Of a DNA stretch of 64,000 nt, positions 1,973-55,318 are shown one piece after another; position 1 is the stretch's first letter; each line of letters opens with the position of its first letter. The stretch covers positions 1,531 to 65,530 of the forward strand of contig JAHJKD010000050.1 in NCBI GenBank assembly GCA_018822435.1, given 5' to 3'. This stretch comes from Patescibacteria group bacterium. GTDB taxonomy: Bacteria > Patescibacteriota > Patescibacteriia > UBA9570 > JAHJKD01. Position numbers and translations under genes: made by a program. Below the pieces are notes generated by a model. The model made no database searches and was not told the origin of the DNA. It saw nothing but the letters and a program-made list of their open reading frames with translations.

Positions 1973-2053
1973 TTATTTATGATAATTAATATTATTAGAT
2001 TTATATTTTACCATTCCGCTGATAATTTCTCAAGATATTATCAATGGGATGGG

Positions 2054-2086
2054 GGAGTTCGGAAAAGGAGGGGGAAACCGAACTCC
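2054..2086 (-). terminator. Hairpin terminator of the GC-rich aminotransferase gene
   Basis: Perfect 9-bp stem ggagttcgg/ccgaactcc with a 15-nt loop, immediately 3' of the minus-strand ORF that ends at 2117. Confidence 0.45.
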
Positions 2087-2116
2087 GGGTGGGAAAAGGA
2101 AGGAAGGCGCCGCACA

Positions 2117-3265
2117 TCAGATCTCCGACGGATCCGGGACATCCGTATGCCACTCCGCGGGAATCTCGAATCCAGGCAGGAGCCGTTCGACCGTAGGCAT
2201 GTCCCGCCGGACCATGGCCCAGTAGGACTCGGCTGCTTTCGCCAGGAGGGGATGGGGCTCGCCGCGCCGTGCGAACGGGGCATCGATGGGCTTGGGATTG
2301 AGGCTGCGTTCCAGCCATTCGAGGTAGGCGTCGCCCTCGCCGTCATGGAAGACTCCCAGAGGCGGGTTCTCGTTGGTGGCTCGCATCACGGCCTGTACGG
2401 GCACGAAGCCGGACCAGGATCCAGAGACCGAAAATCCCTCGGCCTCGACCAGTTCGTGGCGGCTGACAGGCTTCTCTGCCACCGTGACACCCATGTGCTC
2501 GAAGATCTTGATCATGGTGGCCCGCGTCAGCCCGGGCAGGCACCACGAGTGCAGGTCAGGCGTGACCACGGTGTTCTCGTCCTGGAAGACGAAGAACAGG
2601 TTGGATCCGGTCGTCTCAGCCAGATCGTCTCCTTCGTGCGTCATGCCCAGGACTTCGTTGCAGCCGTACCACTTGGCCACCACGCCCTTGAACTTGGCGC
2701 CCAGGGGGTAGTTGGCCGCCGACTTGATGTGCGGGTAGCCGTTGTAGGGGCTGGCCCGCCGGAACAAACGTCCCGGGAAAAGCAAGTTGATGCCGAATTC
2801 GCCCTCAGGCAGTTTGAGGTACTCAGTCAGATCACGCGTGATGATCTGCCAGTCGGCCGTGCCCGTGGCGTGCACCCCGAGCTCTTCGCCCCAGGCCCCG
2901 CCGAAGATGCGGAGGTACACGTCCTGGGCCTGAGTCAGCTCAGCTGCGTTCAAAGAGGCAATCTTGACCATGGCCGTCAGAACTTGCTCGGCCGTAGGAA
3001 TCGTCTCCCGCGGCAAGCCCAGGGCCATCATATTCCGAACCAGTCGCCGAGCGTGGTCCGGACCGCGGAAGATGCGCCGCTTGCCGTCCGCGCACATCCA
3101 GGCTCCGGCCCCGCCGAAGATGCGTGTGCCGTAGTGGCCGTCGTGCCGGTACGGGCTGTGCCCGATCCCGCCGGTCTCGCGAATCTCGCCCTGGACGATC
3201 ATGTGGGTGTGATGGTAGGAACCATCCGCACCCTCGAAACTGTAAACCAAAGGCTTGACGCCCAT
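2117..3265 (-). CDS. Class IV aminotransferase, branched-chain amino acid aminotransferase-like; GC-rich foreign-looking gene
   Basis: 382-aa ORF with blocks shared with actinobacterial IlvE (NLFFVF, VTPDLHSWCLPGLTR, KFKGVVAKW). Strongly GC-rich with G/C-ending codons. RBS ggaagga upstream. The overlapping plus-strand 447-aa ORF is an antisense artefact. Confidence 0.65.
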   Translation of the reverse strand: MGVKPLVYSFEGADGSYHHTHMIVQGEIRETGGIGHSPYRHDGHYGTRIFGGAGAWMCADGKRRIFRGPDHARRLVRNMMALGLPRETIPTAEQVLTAMVKIASLNAAELTQAQDVYLRIFGGAWGEELGVHATGTADWQIITRDLTEYLKLPEGEFGINLLFPGRLFRRASPYNGYPHIKSAANYPLGAKFKGVVAKWYGCNEVLGMTHEGDDLAETTGSNLFFVFQDENTVVTPDLHSWCLPGLTRATMIKIFEHMGVTVAEKPVSRHELVEAEGFSVSGSWSGFVPVQAVMRATNENPPLGVFHDGEGDAYLEWLERSLNPKPIDAPFARRGEPHPLLAKAAESYWAMVRRDMPTVERLLPGFEIPAEWHTDVPDPSEI

Positions 3266-3474
3266 TTTCTTTTCCTTCCGTTAATGTGAGTTGTCAATTA
3301 ACTTTCTTATAATAAAACAGACCCCTCCTTTTTAGAACTCCTTTTTGGTCTGTATTAGCTTGTTTAAATTACTGGAAATACTAAAAAAAATCAAGCTTAA
3401 GTGATTTGACATAAGCCAGGTAAAATAATAAGCTTTGGCCACCTTGACAACCTACCAAAAGGAGGGGGAAACCC

Positions 3475-4332
3475 ATGAAACTCACGACCGCACTGGTCAT
3501 CGCGTCCGCCATCACCTTCACTCCGTTTTGCTTCGCACAGATGGATGAAGGGCCCGAACCCGGGGCTGTCCGGTCACCGGGCGAGCCTGTCGACATGTGC
3601 CGCAGCCTTTATGGCTGGGTGCCCTGTTCCGAGGATATGGAGATCACTCATGTCTGTTTCGACCGGTCTTCCAGCTTCAACTGCCTTGACTGCACCATCA
3701 CCATGGCCCTGCTCGGCGTTCTCGATTCCGACCCGCAGAGCATGATCAACACGACCGCCGGCTGCCTCATGAACAACTTCACCCCGGAAGCCTGGGCCGA
3801 ACTCGAACACTGGGAGAAAGACTACACCAGCTCCCTGGGCCCGGCCTTGGCTGGCAAGGACATCGCCGACCTGCTCCAGAACAGTGTTTACATGGCCCGG
3901 TTTGCTTCCTACAATCTCATCTGCAAAGACAAGACCGAGGTGATCCCAGAATCCTTGACCGAGTACGTCACTTTCTGGCGAGAATCCTCCTGGGATGATC
4001 GCGCCCCCTTGCCGGTCATGATCGCCGAAGCTGCTTTTGAAGAGCATCTTGAAGCTCAAGCCTACCTCTTCTCCTTCAACTGCCTCGCCTTTTACCCGCG
4101 CACGCGTGGCAGCCCGCCCATCTACTTCACCCCGGAAGAAGACAGCGAAGCCGAACTTGGAGCCGCCTTGGTTGCTTTCCTTGCCCATCAAAAAATCACG
4201 GCCATCGCCGTGATCAAGGACTCGCCGGAGCAAGCTGCTCTAGAAGCCAAGGACTGGAAGGTCTGTCCTTCTGCCGCCACTGACAACTTCAACGTCGTCA
4301 TCCCCCCACCGATCGTCTACCACTTCCTCTGA
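3475..4332 (+). CDS. Secreted Cys-rich hypothetical protein (GC-rich island gene)
   Basis: 285-aa ORF. N-terminal signal peptide MKLTTALVIASAITFTPFCFA, many Cys. Strong SD aaaaggaggggga 5 nt before the ATG. GC-rich. Confidence 0.55.
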   Translation: MKLTTALVIASAITFTPFCFAQMDEGPEPGAVRSPGEPVDMCRSLYGWVPCSEDMEITHVCFDRSSSFNCLDCTITMALLGVLDSDPQSMINTTAGCLMNNFTPEAWAELEHWEKDYTSSLGPALAGKDIADLLQNSVYMARFASYNLICKDKTEVIPESLTEYVTFWRESSWDDRAPLPVMIAEAAFEEHLEAQAYLFSFNCLAFYPRTRGSPPIYFTPEEDSEAELGAALVAFLAHQKITAIAVIKDSPEQAALEAKDWKVCPSAATDNFNVVIPPPIVYHFL

Positions 4333-4457: not shown

Positions 4458-4661
4458 ATGCCTTCAAGAGAACCAAGTTTTGATTCACAACCAAAAACAA
4501 CAATCGAACAAAAACTCGAACAAAGAACTGACATTCTTGATGATCAAGCATTAACAGAAAAATACAAAGGTGGAATCCAAGTAGATTCATATCCAGTAAA
4601 ATCATCAGCTGACGGCCAATGCATGGCCCAGGAAACCAATCTCCGACTCCCAACTGAATAA
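4458..4661 (+). CDS. Small hypothetical protein; possibly the 5' part of a frameshifted gene
   Basis: 67-aa ORF downstream of a good promoter. A +1-frame continuation (4663..5030) is open. Confidence 0.3.
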   Translation: MPSREPSFDSQPKTTIEQKLEQRTDILDDQALTEKYKGGIQVDSYPVKSSADGQCMAQETNLRLPTE

Positions 4662-7517: not shown

Positions 7518-7535
7518 GACGAACTCGAATTAGTT
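7518..7535. repeat. Left arm of an 18-bp perfect inverted repeat flanking the GxxExxY gene
   Basis: gacgaactcgaattagtt. Exact reverse complement at 8356-8373. Confidence 0.8.
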
Positions 7536-8324
7536 CCTAATAAAATTCCAATTTAATCTTGTCCTATTGAAGTTTGCAATTAATCCTAGCTTAATATTAA
7601 AATATTTCAAGTTTTTCTTCATTTTTTCAATTTCAATTTCTGATATTTCTTTCACTGCTAAAACTCTAACTAATATTTTATTTTCAATAAAAAATAATTT
7701 TACATCGCTTTCCCCAAGGATTTCTCCCTTAAAAGACATGGATTTTTTCTTTTTATACAAAAAGGGAATGCCATTATTTCTTAATTCTATCCATAAGGCC
7801 CTTCTATATACATAATGAAAAAATCCTGGCCCTAAAATTGAATGAACTATTAATAAACAATCAAGAACATCTTTCGATAATCCTGGATAAAGCAAATCAG
7901 GTTTAATAGTTATTTCATTTTTTGGTTTAAAATTTTTATTTTTTAATTTTAAATTATTTATAACTCTCTCATACTGTGCCTTTTCTGATCCAAAATTCAT
8001 TAATATTCCTAAGGAGTAATCAGTAACTTTCAAATAAGAAATTAATTGGGCGATATTAATAGGATGAATTTCATCTCGCGCCTTCAATTCTAAAATTATT
8101 TTATCTTGCACAACAATATCAGGACGACAAAATCCTATTTTATGTCCTTTATAAAGCATGTCTAAAGGTTTCTCTAAAACAAAATTAATTTTCTTTTTGT
8201 TTAAACCAATCGCCATTGCTTTCTGATATATTTCCTCTTTATGTCCTGGGCCAATTTTATTATAAACATCATAATAGACACCTTGTACTAAATAAGATAA
8301 TTCCGGAAAAATAATTTCAGTCAT
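7530..8324 (-). CDS. Tandem two-domain GxxExxY protein (PD-(D/E)XK-like)
   Basis: 264 aa with two repeats of the GxxExxY-family pattern (LVQGVYYDVYNKIGPGHKEEIYQKAM...; ...GPGFFHYVYRRALWIELRN...). Confidence 0.6.
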   Translation of the reverse strand: MTEIIFPELSYLVQGVYYDVYNKIGPGHKEEIYQKAMAIGLNKKKINFVLEKPLDMLYKGHKIGFCRPDIVVQDKIILELKARDEIHPINIAQLISYLKVTDYSLGILMNFGSEKAQYERVINNLKLKNKNFKPKNEITIKPDLLYPGLSKDVLDCLLIVHSILGPGFFHYVYRRALWIELRNNGIPFLYKKKKSMSFKGEILGESDVKLFFIENKILVRVLAVKEISEIEIEKMKKNLKYFNIKLGLIANFNRTRLNWNFIRN

Positions 8325-13469: not shown

Positions 13470-14203
13470 TAGGAATCTTTGACTCCGGTTTAGGAGGATT
13501 AGGAATTTTCAAAAAAATCAAAGCCATGCTTCCGGATGAGGATATTTATTATTATGGCGATACCGCTAATATCCCTTATGGTGAAAAATCTCCAGACGAA
13601 TTAAAAGGCCTGATTACTGCTGGCTTAAAATATTTAGAAAAAAAAGGCGTGAATATTATTGTAATTGCCTGTAACACGGCTTCTGTTTTGGATACTACTT
13701 ATTTTCGCCGCCAAGTTAAAATTCCAGTTGTTGCGGTCGTACCGGTTATAAAAACTGCTTCCAATCAGTCAAGAAATAATAAGATCGCCTTGCTGTCCAC
13801 TAAAGCCACCGCCATAAGCCCTTACACGGATTACCTTATAGAAGAATTCGCCCCAGAAGCCGAGGTCAAAAAAATTGCCTGCTCTGGCTGGGTTGAAGCG
13901 ATTGAAAAAGGCAAGGTCTCTGACCACCGTTTAAATTCTTGCCTAAAAAAGGTCGATGAAGAAGACGTTGTCGTGCTCGGTTGCACCCACTACACTCTTA
14001 TCAAAGGCGATATCCAAAGATTGCTCGGTCCCAATAAAATCCTCCTTGATTCCAATGAAGCTGTCGCCCGCCAAGTTCTTCGTGTCATGAACAAAGAAAA
14101 ACTTTACCAACATATAAAAAAGCCGAGATATATTTTCGACGCTTCCGGACATAAGAAAAAATTCCAGAAAATGGTTGATAGGTATTTAGAGGAGATAGCA
14201 TAA
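13466..14203 (+). CDS. murI: Glutamate racemase
   Basis: 245 aa. IGIFDSGLGGL, VIACNTAS, GCTHY motifs. Confidence 0.9.
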   Translation: MIGIFDSGLGGLGIFKKIKAMLPDEDIYYYGDTANIPYGEKSPDELKGLITAGLKYLEKKGVNIIVIACNTASVLDTTYFRRQVKIPVVAVVPVIKTASNQSRNNKIALLSTKATAISPYTDYLIEEFAPEAEVKKIACSGWVEAIEKGKVSDHRLNSCLKKVDEEDVVVLGCTHYTLIKGDIQRLLGPNKILLDSNEAVARQVLRVMNKEKLYQHIKKPRYIFDASGHKKKFQKMVDRYLEEIA

Positions 14204-14210
14204 TTTCACG

Positions 14211-14284
14211 CCCCCAATAAATTGGTGGCCTGAAATTATATTATAGTATATTAGCCAAGCCCCGAATTTATTCGGGGTATTGGC
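14211..14284. repeat. About 75-bp double-hairpin intergenic repeat, copy A
   Basis: cccccaataaattggtgg...ccaagccccgaatttattcggggtattgg. Near-identical unit at 41066-41146. Sits between convergent murI and murD. Confidence 0.7.
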
Positions 14285-41024: not shown

Positions 41025-41065
41025 AATTTAATTATAGCAATATCTCTTTCCAAAACAAATTTCAA

Positions 41066-41146
41066 ACCCCCAATAAATTGGGAGCTTGAAATTAAATAAT
41101 CGTAAACTCCAAGCCCCGAATTTATTCGGGGTATTGGAGTTTATGT
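41066..41146. repeat. About 80-bp double-hairpin intergenic repeat, copy B
   Basis: cccccaataaattgggag...ccaagccccgaatttattcggggtattgg, in the divergent uvrC/uvrA spacer. Matches 14211-14284. Confidence 0.7.
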
Positions 41147-44054: not shown

Positions 44055-44096
44055 CTGTAGTGTAGGGACAACCCTAGGGTTGTCCCTACACTACAG
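44055..44096. repeat. 42-bp perfect palindrome P1 (ctgtagtgtagggacaacc-ctag-ggttgtccctacactacag)
   Basis: Every position pairs. Shares the arm tgtagtgtagggaca with the palindrome at 56244-56286. Confidence 0.85.
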
Positions 44097-46465: not shown

Positions 46466-47281
46466 TTATGACAATTTCTTATTCTGAGGTTTTTTAAGAT
46501 AATTATTTTTAATTGAAATCTTTTTTCCCGTACGTTTCTCAATGTCCTTACGGGTAGATCCGGCTACTTCACCGCCTTCTTTAGCATCTTTTTTTAATGG
46601 TTTGAAAGATTTGGACTCTTTGTCTTGAGTTAATCTGGTTGTTGTCGCTTCACCCAGCATTGTCAGGATCAATTCCAAATCATCCATATGATCCCTTAGA
46701 TTCTCACGCTGTAAATTCTTAAACTTTTTATACTCCTCCGGCGACATGTCAAAAGTGGCCTTAGAAATTTCTGAAGTCAAAATGGCGTATTCCCTCGCTT
46801 GTTTTAGCCCTCTTTTACTCCACTCATCAGTCAGCTCTTCCCGCACAGCAATGCCCCTCATCCTCTTCTCAATCCAGGAGTCACTATATCCCTTGGCTTT
46901 ATATAGCGCCTTTGTCCTTTTTGTTGCCAATTCCGGATCTTCAATTTCTTTGATCCTTTCATAGCCAACTCTGGCTAGCCAACGCTTGAAAGGTTCGGCT
47001 TTAGGCGAAGGGATTGATTGGATAATACGAAATATCCCCTCTGTATTGGCGCAATTCATCTCTTGTTTGCCGCCTTTAGTGCCTATTTCAAGGGTGTGTA
47101 CAATTTGTACCCACCCCTTAGCTATTTCTGCGTCTCTCTGCTTCATCCGTTGTATATATTGTTTTGCGTCCCGAGAATCAATTAATGCTAAAACAACATC
47201 TTCAACAACAAACCACCATTCATTATCATGAATAGTCCTTCTCACTTTTTTCCCTTTAAAAATCGCAATTTTATTATTCAT
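46466..47281 (-). CDS. Bro-N domain protein (DinD / phage antirepressor-like)
   Basis: 271 aa. N-terminus IAIFKGKKVRRTIHDNEWWFVVEDVVLALIDS fits Bro-N. Basic C-terminus. Confidence 0.55.
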   Translation of the reverse strand: MNNKIAIFKGKKVRRTIHDNEWWFVVEDVVLALIDSRDAKQYIQRMKQRDAEIAKGWVQIVHTLEIGTKGGKQEMNCANTEGIFRIIQSIPSPKAEPFKRWLARVGYERIKEIEDPELATKRTKALYKAKGYSDSWIEKRMRGIAVREELTDEWSKRGLKQAREYAILTSEISKATFDMSPEEYKKFKNLQRENLRDHMDDLELILTMLGEATTTRLTQDKESKSFKPLKKDAKEGGEVAGSTRKDIEKRTGKKISIKNNYLKKPQNKKLS

Positions 47282-47637
47282 CTAATTTTATTTTAAATGA
47301 TTATATTAATTATAACAAAAATAAATAAAAACACCCGGATTTTTTTGGGTGTTCTGAATTTAACATATAAATTTTTATATCTCAAATTTAACACAAAATT
47401 TGAAATATGGCAAATCCTTATTTCAAGTAAAATTTAATTAACTATTATATAAAATAGACAAAATTTAAACTGCCACCGAGAACTTCCTTTGTGTATGACA
47501 GTCGCTGCTGTCGCTGAGGGAGGCGTGGACACCGTCATCAGGAAGATGATGTTCGGAAATGGGTTGTGGTGTCTCTGAGGGCAAGTACGGAGCAGACTTC
47601 TTCCTCCAGCTGGCGAAGAAGTAGAAAGGAGGAGGCC

Positions 47638-47736
47638 ATGTCTCATTCACGAGCCGGGCCAACAGACTCGCCAGCGGAGGCCTCAAGCCAAGAATCCCTG
47701 GTGAGTCTCCGTAAAATTATTACATTTTTAAAATAA
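47638..47736 (+). CDS. Candidate 32-aa peptide gene with strong SD at end of GC-rich segment
   Basis: aaaggaggaggcc ATG ... TAA followed by the terminator at 47743. Neither overlapping minus-strand ORF has an RBS. Confidence 0.2.
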   Translation: MSHSRAGPTDSPAEASSQESLVSLRKIITFLK

Positions 47737-47742
47737 TAAAAA

Positions 47743-47770
47743 CACCCGAATATCATCGGGTATTTTTATT
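47743..47770. terminator. Bidirectional hairpin terminator (acccga-atatcat-tcgggt) with T-runs on both strands
   Basis: On the minus strand it follows the displaced tRNA 3' fragment. On the plus strand it follows the peptide ORF. Confidence 0.6.
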
Positions 47771-47815
47771 GTTGGTTGCGGGGGGCGGATTCGAACCGCC
47801 GACCTGATGGTTATG
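47765..47815 (-). repeat. Partial tRNA-Met copy (anticodon loop to 3' end, with encoded CCA) = distal att direct repeat
   Basis: 42 nt (47765-47806) identical to 49829-49870 inside the intact tRNA-Met. The 5' half is absent. Confidence 0.75.
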
Positions 47816-47994
47816 AAGATTGGGACCCCTCATCAACCAATTTGGCTAACCTAAGTCATTTATAGCTGAGCTCAGCTAAAATTTACCCACCTATCATTTT
47901 CTCAAGCATTCCCAAACTTGATCAAATGTACTCAATCATCATCACTTCGTGGGCAACTGGTGGGCAACGCTTTTTAAGAAAGTAATTATTAATT

Positions 47995-48204
47995 ATGAAA
48001 ACCAATCACAATGAATCCAAGCCATTGGATGAATCTCTCTTAACCGTAAGCCAAGTTGCGAAGCTGTTGAATCTTTCCAAAACAACAATCTATCGTCTGG
48101 TTGAGACGCGACAAATTCCACACTACAGAATTTCCGGGTCTCTCCGCTTTTCACGGAAAGAGATAGAAGAATATTTAAGGCAAGAAAGCTACAGATCTCC
48201 CTAG
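47995..48204 (+). CDS. xis: Excisionase/AlpA-family HTH DNA-binding protein
   Basis: 69 aa. LTVSQVAKLLNLSKTTIYRLVETRQIPHYRISGSLRFSRKEIEEYL matches the excisionase-family DNA-binding domain. Confidence 0.7.
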   Translation: MKTNHNESKPLDESLLTVSQVAKLLNLSKTTIYRLVETRQIPHYRISGSLRFSRKEIEEYLRQESYRSP

Positions 48205-48296
48205 AACCCAATTTAGAAAATTTTTATATTTCCTGCCTACATTGACAAATAGCAAATCTTTCTTAAGATAAATGTACTTATTTTTAACACAATATT

Positions 48297-48839
48297 ATGA
48301 GTGTAAAATTTTTAAAGAGCTTTGATGATTATTGCGAAGAGCACACATCAAAGGAAGATGTAAACGAAGCAATTAAAAATCCAGATAAAGTGACCAGAGA
48401 AGATATGGGTAATCAGCAATCCCTGTTCTTTTTGAAACATTTCTCTGAAGGCGAAAATGAATATTACATTCTTGCCTGCGCTACCAAAAAGGAAGATGAA
48501 ACTAGTGTATATGCCGCTTTTTATCTGCCACCGGAATTTGATAGTCAACTATCTAAAATGGATGCAATAGATGTAATGGTGGCTGTGGCCGAGGCATTTG
48601 GTTTAGAGGCAACTAGCGGTTCAGCCAAATCTAAGTTTATTCATCATCAGACCTATTGGACTGACAACGATAATTCTATACCTTTTATAGAAGGATTTCA
48701 GCCAGGTGATAAAAAAATGATATGTCAAACGTGGTTTAAAAAAGAGCCCCACGGAAGCAAAGTTCGTATCGAAATTCATACTGCTTTTTGCATCAATATG
48801 GATATTTATTACGAATGGCTACATTCTATTAAAAGATAA
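48297..48839 (+). CDS. Hypothetical protein (element cargo)
   Basis: 180-aa ORF. No motif recognised. Confidence 0.45.
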   Translation: MSVKFLKSFDDYCEEHTSKEDVNEAIKNPDKVTREDMGNQQSLFFLKHFSEGENEYYILACATKKEDETSVYAAFYLPPEFDSQLSKMDAIDVMVAVAEAFGLEATSGSAKSKFIHHQTYWTDNDNSIPFIEGFQPGDKKMICQTWFKKEPHGSKVRIEIHTAFCINMDIYYEWLHSIKR

Positions 48840-48849
48840 GAATAAGAAC

Positions 48850-49701
48850 TCATGCTAAAATATATTTCTTTATATAAACATCTAACTCTATCCAATTAAC
48901 CAAGGGCCTATTAAATTTTTGTATAATTGGTTCGACTTCCTTCGCTATAATATTATTTTTAATCAAGAAATACATTTGTGAGAATTTTCCTCTGTTCTCA
49001 TTATCTTGTTCTTCCCAACTTATTATCACTCCAAGGATATTCTTGTTTGAAGATAAAAATAGCTGGACTGGTATAGACATCTCTGCCAAGCCTGGTTTTA
49101 GAATCCAGTGCTGAGGTACTCTAAGAAATATAATTCCTAAGTTTTCTTTTCGAATTTGTTCAGCTGCTTTCTCACAAGGTTTTACTATTGATTCTTCAGA
49201 ATAGGGGGTAGTTTCAGATTTATTTTTTACCTCACATCGTATTTCAGGAGTAGTCTTTAAAAGTATATCAAAATTTTTATCTTTATCCTTATCTTTATCA
49301 GCGATAACAAACTCAAATGGTAAATTTCTTCTGAAGAAATGAGCACCACCACCCAATTCAGCAAATCGCGAAGTTAGATTTCCTCTTTTTATATGCTTAA
49401 CAACAGAGTCTATCCCCTCAACATGCTGCATGTTGTAAACCATTTCAGCTAAATCAGTAACCCGATTTTGATGGACAAATCCCATTTTCTTTGTGAGTAG
49501 AAACACCCTAGCTTCTTCTGTTTGTTGTGGATGCCGGCTATGTTGCATAAAAAGCGTTTGATTGGCCCATTCGTTTCTTATCATTCTTCTTATCAATTCT
49601 ATTGAGACGGCGCTCCTATAGAAATCAAACTTTTCTTTTGGGAGCTTGTTTTTTATTGTTTGGCATAATTTTTTTATTTCTGCCTCACTGACTTTTTCCA
49701 T
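48850..49701 (-). CDS. Hypothetical protein (element cargo)
   Basis: 283-aa ORF. No motif recognised. Confidence 0.45.
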   Translation of the reverse strand: MEKVSEAEIKKLCQTIKNKLPKEKFDFYRSAVSIELIRRMIRNEWANQTLFMQHSRHPQQTEEARVFLLTKKMGFVHQNRVTDLAEMVYNMQHVEGIDSVVKHIKRGNLTSRFAELGGGAHFFRRNLPFEFVIADKDKDKDKNFDILLKTTPEIRCEVKNKSETTPYSEESIVKPCEKAAEQIRKENLGIIFLRVPQHWILKPGLAEMSIPVQLFLSSNKNILGVIISWEEQDNENRGKFSQMYFLIKNNIIAKEVEPIIQKFNRPLVNWIELDVYIKKYILA

Positions 49702-49828
49702 ATGTTTCTTATTAATAATTACCCACTACTTATTTTATCATGTTCAATTACAATAATAACAACATAATATAATTGTAGTTTTTAGGTGTGATTTGATTTA
49801 ATCAGTAAACACCGATGAGGGACTTCTT

Positions 49829-49870
49829 GTTGCGGGGGGCGGATTCGAACCGCCGACCTGATGGTTATGA
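49829..49870 (-). repeat. Proximal att direct repeat (inside tRNA-Met)
   Basis: gttgcggggggcggattcgaaccgccgacctgatggttatga identical to 47765-47806. Confidence 0.75.
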
Positions 49871-49901
49871 GCCACCCGAGCTGCCACTGCTCCACCCCGC
49901 G
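49830..49901 (-). tRNA. tRNA-Met (anticodon CAT), initiator-like (C1:A72 mismatch)
   Basis: CGCGGGGUGGAGCAG...GGCUCAUAACC...GGUUCGAAUCCGCCCCCCGCAA. Close to E. coli tRNA-fMet. CCA not encoded. Confidence 0.8.
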
Positions 49902-50955: not shown

Positions 50956-52214
50956 GTGAATGGCTCTTATATATTTTTGCCTTCTTGCTTCCCTGGCAAA
51001 CCCGGTGGATTTTTTTTGAAGGTGAAATAAATAATGGCTTCTGGGAATATGGCTCTTATAGTTTGTATGGTTTTGATATTATATTGTTTCTTCTGCTCAT
51101 CATTACAATCATAGTCGGAAAAAAGAAAAACTTTTTCATCAATCGATTTAGTCTGGCTGCTCTTGGCCTTCTCCTGGTTGCCTTTTTCTCTCTCTACTGG
51201 GCCCTGGACAAAGAAATCGCCCTATATGCTTTTACCCGCCTGCTGGCTGCCATGCTGCTTATTATTATTGTCTGGCAGATCAAATTCAAGCCTCTTTTTC
51301 TGGCTGGCGCCATTGCATTGGCCGGAGTATTTCAATCTATTCTCGCCACCTGGCAATTTTTCACACAAAAAGCTGTGGCCATAAAATTTTTAGGCATGGC
51401 TGAACACCTACCCTGGATCCTGGGGGATCAGGTTATTGAATTTACCGGCGGCCGAATGCTCCGGGCTTATGGCTCTTTTCCGCATCCCAATATTCTAGCC
51501 GCTTTTCTCGCTATCGCTGTCATTCTCTCTATTGGTATTTATTTAAAATCAACTAATAAATGGGGTAAGTATTTTGCTCTGGCTTCTCTGGTAATAAATT
51601 CTGCCGGATTATTCTTTACTTTCTCCCGCGCCGCCTGGATCGGCTTATTTATTACTTTGCTTTTTTATGGTTTGCTGATCTTCTGGATCTACCATCGCCG
51701 TGAGCTGACATATATAAAATTATTCACTGCTATTCTTCTGCCGTTTATTTTGCTGACTGCCATTTATCCTAATCTCGTTTTAACTAGATTCGGATTAGGA
51801 GAAGATTTTCAGAGATTAGAGATAAAATCTATTGAACAGCGGGCCGATTATACGGAACAATCATTGGAAATCATTAAAGCCAATTTCATGACTGGTGTTG
51901 GCATTGGCAATTATACCTGGACCTTGCATGAACAAGTTGATAAACATTTGGAATCTTATGATTATCAGCCTGTCCATAATGTTTATTTACTTGTCTTGGC
52001 TGAATTAGGAATATTTGGATTATTATTTTTTATATATTTAATCGCGGCTGTATTATTGAAAATTGATTTGAAATCTCGTCTTAATCTGGCTTTTGCCATG
52101 TGCTTCTTGTTTTTCGCCTTTATCGCTTTTTTCGACCACTTCCTCTGGACTATGGCGATTGGACTTTATCTTTTCTTTTTGATATTCGCCGTCAACAGTA
52201 AATATAGTAATTAG
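50931..52214 (+). CDS. O-antigen ligase/polymerase (Wzy_C) family membrane protein
   Basis: 427 aa, about 10 to 12 TM helices. Periplasmic-loop motif FSRAAWIG resembles the Wzy_C signature. Confidence 0.6.
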   Translation: MRQIIAKIGEWLLYIFAFLLPWQTRWIFFEGEINNGFWEYGSYSLYGFDIILFLLLIITIIVGKKKNFFINRFSLAALGLLLVAFFSLYWALDKEIALYAFTRLLAAMLLIIIVWQIKFKPLFLAGAIALAGVFQSILATWQFFTQKAVAIKFLGMAEHLPWILGDQVIEFTGGRMLRAYGSFPHPNILAAFLAIAVILSIGIYLKSTNKWGKYFALASLVINSAGLFFTFSRAAWIGLFITLLFYGLLIFWIYHRRELTYIKLFTAILLPFILLTAIYPNLVLTRFGLGEDFQRLEIKSIEQRADYTEQSLEIIKANFMTGVGIGNYTWTLHEQVDKHLESYDYQPVHNVYLLVLAELGIFGLLFFIYLIAAVLLKIDLKSRLNLAFAMCFLFFAFIAFFDHFLWTMAIGLYLFFLIFAVNSKYSN

Positions 52215-52422
52215 GATCACGAAAATTCGAAAAAACGAATTTCTCGAAGGTATTAACTTCATTTATATTGTAATGGCTGATGACTATTTTGTTGGGAATT
52301 TATATTACAGAAATCTTTTCGGCTTATTAAATAATTTCACTTTAAAATTAGTCCAAAGGCGCTTATTAATTTATAAGAGTAATTACCTTCGAGTTTTTCG
52401 TAACTTCATGCTTTCGTGATCC
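52211..52422. repeat. Inverted-repeat (MITE-like) intergenic element 1, rich in cacgaaa/tttcgtg words
   Basis: About 50-bp terminal IRs: ggatcacgaaaattcgaaaaaacgaatttctcgaaggta... and the reverse complement ...taccttcgagtttttcgtaacttcatgctttcgtgatcc. Confidence 0.6.
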
Positions 52423-52526
52423 AAATTTCCCCTAAACGAAATAGAGCCCGTGACATGCACAGAATAGCGTCATAAAATTCACGATAATTTCAGAATAAAT
52501 AATTTGCTTATTTTCTCTGAAACGAT

Positions 52527-55127: not shown

Positions 55128-55160
55128 GGCGAGACTAAATATCTCGCCTTCATTTTATTT
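55128..55160 (+). terminator. groEL intrinsic terminator
   Basis: ggcgaga ctaaatat ctcgcc + ttcattttattt. Confidence 0.65.
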
Positions 55161-55165
55161 ATAGT

Positions 55166-55318
55166 AATTGGGATCACGAAAGTACGAAATTACGAATAAC
55201 TCGAAGGTAATGACTTTTAATATAAAATATTCGTTTTATTACTAATTTATTACGTATAAATATTGGTATCACGACTTTCTTCGTGTTCTTAACTCTTTCG
55301 AAATTTCGTGTTCCAAAT
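55166..55318. repeat. Inverted-repeat (MITE-like) intergenic element 2, related to element 1
   Basis: gggatcacgaaagtacgaaattacgaataactcgaaggtaatgac aligns with 52215-52260. Degenerate inverted copy at about 55266-55318. Confidence 0.5.

What the first reader, a model, noticed from the sequence alone, without database searches (positions are those of the whole stretch)
47765..49901. Remnant integrative element at tRNA-Met defined by a 42-bp direct repeat that is the tRNA 3' half
The intact tRNA-Met(CAT) lies at 49830-49901 on the minus strand. Its 3' 42 nt (49829-49870) is duplicated exactly at 47765-47806, in the same orientation and with no tRNA 5' half. This is the attL/attR signature of site-specific integration into a tRNA 3' end. 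The distal copy keeps an encoded CCA (…GCAACCA) and the original downstream terminator (47743-47770). The functional tRNA has a different trailer (…GCAACAAG). This fits the rule that the element donates the new 3' end. The roughly 2-kb interior has an AlpA/excisionase-family HTH gene (47995-48204), preceded by tgggcaac direct repeats and a 14-bp palindrome agctgagctcagct, plus two unknown ORFs. No integrase is present. This is consistent with a decayed element or a satellite that depends on a helper integrase. A Bro-N (antirepressor-like) gene and a GC-rich SD-peptide segment lie just outside the distal repeat, which may mean tandem or older insertions.
Basis: seen in the sequence. Interest (0 to 1): 0.6.

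Follow-up and report, generated by a model that had tools for sequence, protein, structure and literature searches.

The report
Integrase-less mini-island at initiator tRNA-Met
A 2-kb piece of foreign DNA sits at the end of the initiator tRNA-Met gene of a Patescibacteria (CPR) genome. It is bounded by an exact 42-bp copy of the tRNA's 3' part and has no integrase gene, so it is an ordinary kind of mobile-element footprint, though a related element in another metagenome sits in a tandem array of similar integrase-less units.

Summary
It brackets 2012 bp with three intact genes:
- an excisionase-family HTH protein (HTH_17/TIGR01764, not AlpA);
- a 180-aa unknown protein;
- a 283-aa protein, here shown to belong to a roughly 660-cluster, un-named family with a PD-(D/E)xK nuclease motif and fold.

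No recombinase is present. A related genome (L007) has the identical tRNA in the same neighbourhood, with no partial copy and no element. An unrelated metagenome contig (L012) carries a homologous HTH/179-aa/301-aa trio next to the same 42-bp core. The flanking arms there are 71-76% identical to the window's, and they sit in a tandem array with at least two more integrase-less units. Every partial core is 42/42 identical although the arms have diverged. The cargo proteins are only 34% identical, whereas the HTH is 75% identical.

The best reading is a site-specific integration product that depends on an integrase supplied in trans (CIME-like or satellite-like). It carries its own directionality factor and a nuclease-type cargo module. 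A dead remnant remains a serious rival, and no excised or empty form was found. This is a new member of a known kind, of moderate interest.

The parts
49829..49901 (-). Intact initiator-type tRNA-Met(CAT). Its 3' 42 nt (49829-49870) form the tRNA-proximal att core, at the junction with the element's right arm.
   Evidence: ARAGORN and Rfam at 59.2 bits. The sequence is identical over 73 nt to the tRNA of relative L007. A promoter-like site, TTGACA-17-TAATAT, lies at 49983-49955.
47775..47816 (-). Distal partial tRNA copy (U33 to C74) with no 5' half. This is the distal att core.
   Evidence: It is an exact 42/42 match to 49829-49870, with 0 matches in 100 shuffles.
47744..47761 (.). Bidirectional intrinsic terminator just outside the distal core. 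It is probably the tRNA's pre-insertion terminator, now displaced by 2 kb.
   Evidence: Terminator scan. L007 has a terminator at the same position, directly after its tRNA. L012 likewise has one directly after its core at 1399-1440.
47817..47994 (.). Left arm of the element (putative attP P arm), which also holds the HTH upstream region. It contains:
- GTGGGCAAC x2 at 47949-47957 and 47960-47968;
- an inverted copy-like motif at 47882-47890;
- the palindrome at 47864-47877;
- the inverted repeat 47828-47839 / 47808-47818, which spans the core edge.
   Evidence: The arm is 76% and 71% identical to the two L012 arms. Homology ends at the GTGGGCAAC motif. There is no covariation support for an RNA. 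The assignment of binding sites is inference.
47995..48204 (+). 69-aa excisionase-family DNA-binding protein, a putative recombination directionality factor or regulator.
   Evidence: Pfam HTH_17 at 64.8 bits. TIGR01764 'excise' at 56.1 bits against a cutoff of 28.8. PHROG 66, excisionase. 75% identical over 48 aa to the L012 homolog.
48297..48839 (+). 180-aa protein of unknown function, convergent partner of the nuclease-like gene. It has its own promoter-like site at 48242-48269.
   Evidence: The word-index search found only itself. It is 34% identical (E 3e-43) to the 179-aa gene in the same position in L012. No match in Pfam, NCBIfam or PDB sequences.
48850..49701 (-). 283-aa protein with a helical N-terminal domain and a PD-(D/E)xK-type C-terminal domain. 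The motif residues E115, D145, E157-x-K159 are intact. It is the first gene after the tRNA and is co-oriented with it.
49702..49828 (.). Right arm of the element (putative attP P' arm). It supplies the new tRNA trailer, contains no terminator, and holds a GTGGGTAAT motif at 49718-49726.
   Evidence: It is 71% identical to L012 4500-4634, which follows the core there. No terminator-like site lies on the minus strand here.

Best explanation
The segment 47775-49870 is the product of site-specific recombination between the initiator tRNA-Met gene (attB) and a small circular element.

**Proposed attP.** It consisted of the right arm, then a 42-bp tRNA-identical core, then the left arm. Integration rebuilt a full tRNA with an element-derived trailer. 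The displaced native 3' part and its terminator ended up 2 kb away.

**What the element carries.** It has no recombinase. It carries three things:
- an excisionase-family HTH protein, likely a directionality factor or regulator acting on the conserved left arm, where two GTGGGCAAC repeats 11 bp apart look like arm-type sites;
- a PD-(D/E)xK nuclease-like protein;
- a 180-aa partner of that protein.

The last two most plausibly form a toxin/immunity or defence-type cargo pair. They may be read through from the tRNA promoter.

**How it moves.** Movement must rely on an integrase made elsewhere, presumably a tyrosine integrase. That makes the element CIME-like or satellite-like: an integrase-less, trans-mobilisable unit.

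**Shown versus inferred.**
- Shown: the repeat, the gene content, the absence of a recombinase, the element-free relative, and the homologous element and tandem array elsewhere.
- Inferred: the identity of the recombinase, the roles of the HTH protein and the arm motifs, the cargo function, and whether the element can still move.
For: **Repeat and tRNA.** The 42-bp direct repeat is exact and non-random, and only one intact tRNA is present.

**Element-free relative.** L007 has the same order, uvrA, EF-P, tRNA-fMet, DAGK, with an identical tRNA. It has no partial copy and none of the three genes.

**Homologous element elsewhere.** L012 carries homologs of all three genes in the same order and orientation. 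Its core at 4458-4499 is flanked by homologs of both window arms, and a second core plus left arm lies at 1242-1440.

**Repeated integration.** This arrangement is what repeated integration into the same att site produces. It shows that several different cargo units used the same arm and core. The arrayed L012 units have no recombinase hit.

**Constraint on the core.** The arms are 71-76% identical, yet all three partial cores are 42/42. At the arms' divergence this would happen with probability of about 1e-5 or less per pair. So the core is constrained or recently renewed.

**Mosaic conservation.** The HTH is 75% identical and the arms 71-76%, against 34% for both cargo proteins. Homology breakpoints fall at the GTGGGCAAC motif.

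**Intact genes.** All three ORFs are intact, and the nuclease motif residues are present.

**HTH assignment.** The HTH passes the curated cutoffs of TIGR01764 and HTH_17.
Against: - No integrase was found in the element, or in the window ORFs that were scanned (precomputed Pfam). That scan was not exhaustive, and the rest of the genome could not be searched.
- No empty site, circular junction or second location was found among contigs encoding identical DAGK or EF-P proteins.
- The attP-like junction in L012 can be explained by tandem integration alone.
- The core and arm motifs are absent from the viral contig collection, and the core is absent from the JGI metagenome contigs.
- Only one other example of the element exists (L012), and its HTH end is cut by the contig end.
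- L007 is a fairly distant relative: its DAGK protein is 69% identical and the DNA about 72-75%. It is not a precise empty site.
Confidence: 0.6

Rival explanations
1. The element is a dead remnant. A larger prophage, ICE or island integrated at tRNA-fMet and later lost its integrase and most genes by internal deletion. What remains is immobile and is kept only by drift or by its cargo.
For: - No recombinase is present.
- No excised or empty variant appears in three samples.
- In L012 the left arms abut different DNA at the GTGGGCAAC motif, so deletions or rearrangements at that point do occur.
- Reviews describe decay of integrated elements into att-flanked relics as common (PMC5704250; tycheposon remnants).
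Against: - All three genes are intact.
- Both arms and the HTH are conserved across two elements whose cargo proteins are only 34% identical.
- Partial cores are 42/42 despite 24-29% arm divergence.
- Three consecutive L012 units lack a recombinase yet keep well-conserved arms. That is more than random decay would be expected to leave.
Confidence: 0.3
2. The element encodes its own unconventional recombinase. The 283-aa PD-(D/E)xK protein, guided by the HTH protein, would cut and join at the tRNA core.
For: - The gene occupies the tRNA-adjacent position usually held by an integrase, in the window and in L012.
- Family members also sit directly downstream of tRNA genes in L011 (tRNA-Gln) and L035 (a tRNA-like 3' part at the contig start).
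Against: - L012 units A and B integrated with the same core and arm but lack this gene.
- Most family members (L008-10, L014, L015, L036) have no tRNA or core nearby.
- L011 shows no direct repeat of its tRNA.
- To my knowledge, no PD-(D/E)xK enzyme is known to carry out conservative site-specific recombination.
- The best structural neighbours are toxin tRNases and restriction enzymes.
Confidence: 0.04
3. The repeat is a partial tRNA gene duplication or an assembly chimera, unrelated to a mobile element.
For: Only the bare fact that the repeat is tRNA sequence.
Against: - The same structure is found in two MAGs and in Logan contigs from two runs.
- The interior is absent from relative L007.
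- A homologous interior, arms and core occur in an unrelated assembly, L012.
Confidence: 0.02

Closest known systems
CIME (cis-mobilisable element) of Streptococcus and other Firmicutes. [quoted passage not shown]
   Same: - It is flanked by att repeats at the 3' end of a target gene.
- It has no integrase or transfer genes.
- It is found in tandem accretion with other units at the same site, as in L012.
   Different: - It is in Patescibacteria, at the initiator tRNA-Met.
- It keeps its own excisionase-family gene and conserved arms.
- Derivation from an ICE or IME is unproven.
- No helper is identified and no mobilisation has been shown.
Tycheposons and their remnants at tRNA genes in Prochlorococcus (bioRxiv 10.1101/2020.12.28.424599).
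   Same: - The host genome is streamlined.
- Integration is into tRNA genes and leaves partial-tRNA repeats.
- Successive integrations push older units further away.
- Partial tRNAs without integrases are scattered in the islands.
   Different: - Tycheposons are defined by their own tyrosine or serine recombinase, often with replication genes. This unit has neither.
- The phylum and the target tRNA are different.
Lambda-type attP organisation with Xis (established knowledge).
   Same: - The core is identical to attB.
- There is a roughly 150-bp arm with tandem direct repeats one helical turn apart.
- Inverted copies of a related motif lie in both arms.
- A small winged-helix or MerR-like excisionase gene sits next to the arm.
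   Different: - Binding-site assignments here rest on sequence only.
- The integrase is missing.
- The crossover position within the 42 bp is unknown.
PD-(D/E)xK toxin nucleases, such as the CdiA-CT tRNases with their CdiI immunity proteins (PDB 4g6v, 5j4a, 4zqu).
   Same: - The E...D...ExK motif is conserved.
- A small partner gene lies adjacent, and the pair is conserved in L012.
   Different: - The protein has an extra helical N-terminal domain.
- It is not part of a CDI system.
- The partner gene is convergent, not co-transcribed.
- Neither activity nor toxicity has been tested.

Membership tests
tRNA-integrated genomic island / integrative element | Direct repeats identical to the 3' part of a tRNA gene flank the element, with an intact tRNA at one end only. 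| tested here: met
tRNA-integrated genomic island / integrative element | The interior is accessory, meaning it is absent from the same site in relatives. | tested here: met
   L007 has the identical tRNA between EF-P and DAGK, with no partial copy and none of the three genes. Caveat: L007 is a distant relative, and it carries other DNA there (a RAYT-like gene).
tRNA-integrated genomic island / integrative element | It encodes its own integrase (tyrosine or serine recombinase) next to an att site. | tested here: not met
   None of the three ORFs gives a recombinase hit in Pfam, PHROGs, PADLOC or NCBIfam. The intergenic spaces (178, 92 and 127 bp) are too short for another gene.
tRNA-integrated genomic island / integrative element | It excises to a circular form and leaves an empty site. 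| not testable with these tools
   No reads are available. Contigs encoding identical flanking proteins show only the occupied state or break at the repeat.
CIME (cis-mobilisable element) | It retains attL and attR but lacks integration and transfer genes. | tested here: met
   The definition is from PMC5704250.
CIME (cis-mobilisable element) | It is mobilised through accretion with a functional element that integrates in its att site. | tested here: inconclusive
   L012 shows tandem accretion of at least 3 units sharing the core and left arm. No functional helper has been seen, and transfer has not been shown.
Excisionase-family DNA-binding proteins (TIGR01764 / Pfam HTH_17) | The score is above the curated cutoff of the family model. 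| tested here: met
   TIGR01764 gives 56.1 bits against a cutoff of 28.8. PF12728 gives 64.8 bits against 27. A role as a directionality factor is not testable here.
AlpA family (Pfam PF05930) | The score is above the Pfam gathering cutoff. | tested here: not met
   13.3 bits against a cutoff of 21, E 0.08.
PD-(D/E)xK nuclease superfamily (283-aa protein) | A conserved acidic/lysine motif (E ... D ... E-x-K) lies on the core beta-strands. | tested here: met
   E115, D141/D145, E157 and K159 are at least 90% conserved in 65 sequences and are present in the window protein. They lie on strands E146-148 and E154-160 of the model.
PD-(D/E)xK nuclease superfamily (283-aa protein) | The restriction-endonuclease-like fold is recognised by structure comparison. 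| tested here: inconclusive
   [not shown]
Integron gene-cassette array | IntI integrase and attI lie at the head of the array, and cassettes end in folded attC sites. | tested here: not met
   No integrase lies next to the tRNA: DAGK is on the other side. The repeated unit is a tRNA 3' part plus a roughly 150-bp arm. Folding of three copies shows no covariation.

The most novel reading that the evidence does not exclude
Patescibacteria may harbour a system of dedicated integrase-less cassettes. Each would be 1-3 kb of variable cargo ending in a conserved recombination site of about 190 bp, made of an arm with GTGGGCAAC repeats plus the 3' part of tRNA-fMet. A single trans-acting integrase would stack and shuffle them at the initiator tRNA gene. 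Functionally this would be an integron-like gene-capture array anchored on a tRNA, and the window's element would be one such cassette carrying its own excisionase.
Probability: 0.25. Interest if true: 0.6.

Novelty: new member of a known kind. Interest (0 to 1): 0.38.

Why it matters
CPR/Patescibacteria have tiny genomes, and little is known about how they gain and lose genes. This locus shows that the initiator tRNA-Met gene is a recombination hotspot in at least two lineages. Small units without their own integrase, carrying nuclease-type (possibly defence or addiction) cargo, accumulate there.

The locus also gives concrete att sequences with which to search for the missing integrase. It puts a roughly 660-cluster, un-named PD-(D/E)xK-like protein family on the map, together with a high-confidence structural model.

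If the units prove to be mobilised in trans, they would be a simple route of gene flux in streamlined episymbionts. If not, this is a routine island remnant.

Tried and rejected
- **Word-index protein searches.** These returned only self hits for all three proteins. For the 283-aa protein that was misleading: the full HMMER scan found 664 clusters.
- **Single-sequence AF2 model.** It was useless, with pLDDT 37. The alignment-based model was used instead.
- **Collection scans for the core and arm.**
  - The exact 42-mer is absent from viral contigs and from JGI metagenome contigs.
  - The arm motif is absent from viral contigs.
  - The element has no match in GenBank phages in distant mode.
  - The 283-aa family is absent from viral contigs.
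  - DAGK relatives are absent from JGI metagenomes.
  - Only one relative was found in GTDB genomes.
- **HTH relatives in IMG/VR and phages.** They are only generic excisionases at 33-49% identity and are uninformative about a helper.
- **The conserved arm plus core as a structured RNA ending in a tRNA-like half.** Rejected for lack of support. The RNAalifold covariation term is unfavourable, with 2 compensatory pairs out of 55. The fold z-score is -2.1. There is no Rfam hit.
- **The L012 junction (right arm, core, left arm) as proof of a circular form.** Rejected, because tandem integration gives the same junction.
- **The 2072-bp Logan contig as a circle.** Rejected. It equals the 2012-bp interior plus 30 nt of each repeat, which is a k=31 graph break.
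- **Bro-N plus the GC-rich segment as an older unit.** No further core or arm copy was found.
- **afdb50 fold search.** The library was unavailable.
Full report
**1. The observation**

ARAGORN calls two tRNAs in the window, one of them tRNA-Met(CAT) at 49829-49901 on the minus strand. Rfam confirms it at 59.2 bits. The gene starts with C1 opposite A72, the bacterial initiator signature, as read from the alignment.

The 42-mer GTTGCGGGGGGCGGATTCGAACCGCCGACCTGATGGTTATGA occurs exactly twice in direct orientation, at 47775-47816 and 49829-49870. No further copy appears even with 3 mismatches allowed, and none of 100 shuffles gave a match.

In tRNA terms the repeat runs from U33 in the anticodon loop to one base past the discriminator. 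The distal copy has no 5' half. The window is contig JAHIYR010000040.1 of the Patescibacteria MAG GCA_018814995.1. A second MAG (GCA_018825215.1) has the same structure at 99.98% identity. Logan contigs from two runs end exactly 30 nt into each repeat, the expected behaviour of a k=31 graph at a 42-bp repeat. The feature is real and is not an assembly artefact.

**2. Contents of the element**

Between the repeats lie 2012 bp with three intact genes.

- **69-aa HTH protein (47995-48204, +).** It passes the curated cutoffs of Pfam HTH_17 and of TIGR01764 'excisionase family DNA-binding protein', but not that of AlpA.
- **180-aa protein (48297-48839, +).** It has no family, PDB or NCBIfam match.
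- **283-aa protein (48850-49701, -).**
  - It looked like an orphan in the word-indexed search.
  - A full HMMER scan of 1.84 billion representatives found 664 clusters at E<=1e-3.
  - The named members come from Wolfebacteria and Absconditicoccaceae.
  - An alignment of 65 members shows E115, D141/D145, C156-E157-x-K159-x-K161 and Q182 nearly invariant.
  - The alignment-based AlphaFold model has pLDDT 95.9.
  - Foldseek finds nothing significant, and no Pfam model hits any of the 65 members.
  - It is therefore a probable nuclease of an un-named family.

None of the three is a recombinase, and the intergenic spaces (178, 92 and 127 bp) leave no room for another gene. No recombinase appeared in the other window ORFs that I scanned, or in the precomputed annotations for 38.8-59.7 kb. 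That scan was not exhaustive.

**3. Comparison with a relative**

The only relative found in GTDB genomes is L007 (its DAGK protein is 69% identical, DNA about 72-75%). It has the same order: uvrA, a 300-aa gene, EF-P, tRNA-fMet, DAGK. Its tRNA is identical over all 73 nt. It has no partial copy and none of the three genes.

Its tRNA is followed directly by a terminator, as the distal copy is in the window. So the 2-kb block is accessory DNA inserted between the tRNA body and its terminator.

L007's tRNA trailer is CAT, and the window's tRNA-Leu trailer is CAA. These genomes therefore do not generally encode CCA, and the 'CCA' after the distal copy may be coincidence.

**4. A homologous element elsewhere**

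Contig L012 (ENA ERZ24794666, 6333 bp) encodes three homologs in the same order and orientation:

- a 301-aa homolog of the nuclease-like protein (34% identical);
- a convergent 179-aa homolog of the 180-aa protein (34%, E 3e-43);
- a truncated HTH gene, 75% identical over 48 aa.

Immediately upstream of the 301-aa gene lies the same 42-bp core (4458-4499). On one side it is followed by a homolog of the window's right arm (71% identical). On the other it is preceded by a homolog of the window's left arm (76%).

A second exact core (1399-1440) is preceded by another left arm (71%). It is followed by a trailer with a terminator and then by about 2.9 kb of unrelated, GC-richer cargo. A third, partial copy of the arm motif lies at 56-92, upstream of an asparaginase-like gene.

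None of these L012 units has a recombinase hit. Reading in tRNA orientation, L012 is a tandem array of at least three units. Each ends in [left arm + core], which is what successive integrations into one att site generate. The junction right arm, core, left arm is therefore not proof of a circle. It does show that several different cargos used the same recombination site.

**5. Signs of constraint**

Arms excluding the core are 71-76% identical between copies, yet all three partial cores are 42/42. At the arms' divergence this has a probability of about 1e-5 or less per pair. The HTH protein and the arms are far better conserved than the two cargo proteins (75% and 71-76% against 34%). Homology between copies stops at the GTGGGCAAC motif.

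The left arm carries several repeats:

- two GTGGGCAAC repeats 11 bp apart (47949-47957 and 47960-47968);
- two ACATTTGA-like repeats;
- a related inverted motif at 47882-47890, with another in the right arm at 49718-49726;
- an inverted repeat (47828-47839 / 47808-47818) spanning the core edge.

This layout resembles the arm-type, Xis and core sites of lambda-type attP. That is inference from sequence only. Folding the arm plus core as RNA gave no covariation support.

**6. Mechanism proposed**

A small circular element carrying right arm, core, left arm recombined with the initiator tRNA gene. The integrase, presumably a tyrosine integrase, was supplied in trans. The tRNA was rebuilt with an element-derived trailer that lacks a terminator. 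The nuclease-like gene, co-oriented and 127 bp downstream, may therefore be read through from the tRNA promoter.

The HTH protein probably acts as directionality factor or regulator on the conserved arm. The nuclease plus partner is most plausibly a toxin/immunity or defence-type module that benefits or stabilises the element.

I put about 0.9 on the integration origin. I put about 0.6 on the fuller statement that this is a still-competent, trans-dependent unit (CIME-like or satellite-like). A dead remnant gets about 0.3, because no empty site, circle or helper was found. A self-encoded unconventional recombinase gets about 0.04.

Four contexts place the nuclease family directly after a tRNA or a tRNA fragment: the window, L012, L011 and L035. 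However, L012 units A and B integrated without it, and most family members have no tRNA nearby.

**7. Relation to known systems**

The unit meets the published definition of a CIME: att sites retained, integration and transfer genes absent (PMC5704250). It also parallels the partial-tRNA remnants and tandem integrations described for tycheposons in Prochlorococcus. It fails the defining feature of a self-sufficient integrative element or tycheposon, which is its own integrase. It is not an integron.

It is a new member of a known kind in a phylum where such elements are little described. The more novel possibility is a dedicated tRNA-anchored cassette system. That rests on one extra contig and needs the read-mapping and genome-wide searches listed under next steps.

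**8. Limits**

The rest of the source genome could not be searched. L012 is cut inside the HTH gene, so the size of its homologous unit is unknown. L007 is not a close enough relative to give a base-precise empty site.

Noticed in passing
window 46466-47281 (-): The Bro-N domain gene just outside the element matches the PADLOC candidate defence family PDC-S13 (E 3e-107) and phrog_15286. It is absent from relative L007. No att core or arm flanks it.
   Followed up: partly
window 47462-47740 (+); L007 5218-5585 (+): A GC-rich segment in an AT-rich intergenic region lies between EF-P/Bro-N and the distal core. It has a strong Shine-Dalgarno sequence (GAAAGGAGGAGG) and a 32-aa ORF (47639-47737), and it ends at the bidirectional terminator. 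L007 has a GC-rich segment at the same relative position. That segment does not align with the window's, is preceded by a promoter, and folds far better than shuffles (z -5.9, against -2.5 in the window). There is no Rfam match. It could be an undescribed small RNA or a small-protein gene.
   Followed up: partly
L007 5535-6059 (-): An IS200-like Y1 transposase/RAYT-type gene (Pfam Y1_Tnp, E 2.4e-7) sits directly after the tRNA-fMet terminator in the relative. That is the position the element occupies in the window.
   Followed up: no
L011 7884-8846; L035 1-1085: Other members of the 283-aa nuclease-like family lie directly downstream of tRNA genes and are co-oriented with them. One follows tRNA-Gln(CTG) by 44 bp in a Wolfebacteria MAG. 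Another follows a tRNA-like 3' part (anticodon TTG) at the very start of an ENA contig. No direct repeat of the tRNA was found in L011.
   Followed up: partly
window 49877 (start of Logan contig L031, SRR27458548): One Logan contig starts inside the tRNA 5' half rather than at the repeat boundary. This hints at a variant junction or strain difference next to the anticodon stem in that sample.
   Followed up: no
window 44055-44096: A perfect 42-bp palindrome (21-nt arms, no spacer) lies just after the uvrA stop codon.
   Followed up: no
window 2001-4000: GC content is 0.55-0.61 in a genome of about 0.40 GC. The region covers a class IV aminotransferase gene (2117-3265, -) and an unannotated stretch at 3475-4332, so it may be horizontally acquired.
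   Followed up: no
window 52203-52259, 52374-52427, 55160-55219; and 14202-14283 vs 41058-41137: Short intergenic repeat families. Copies of about 54 bp (84-87% identical) occur in inverted and direct orientation around the 98-aa ORF, upstream of groES and downstream of groEL. A separate 82-bp direct repeat (85% identical) lies in two distant intergenic regions.
   Followed up: no
window 7530-8324 (-): A 264-aa protein with two PDDEXK_3 domains (E 1.2e-54). It is another nuclease-superfamily accessory-looking gene in the window.
   Followed up: no
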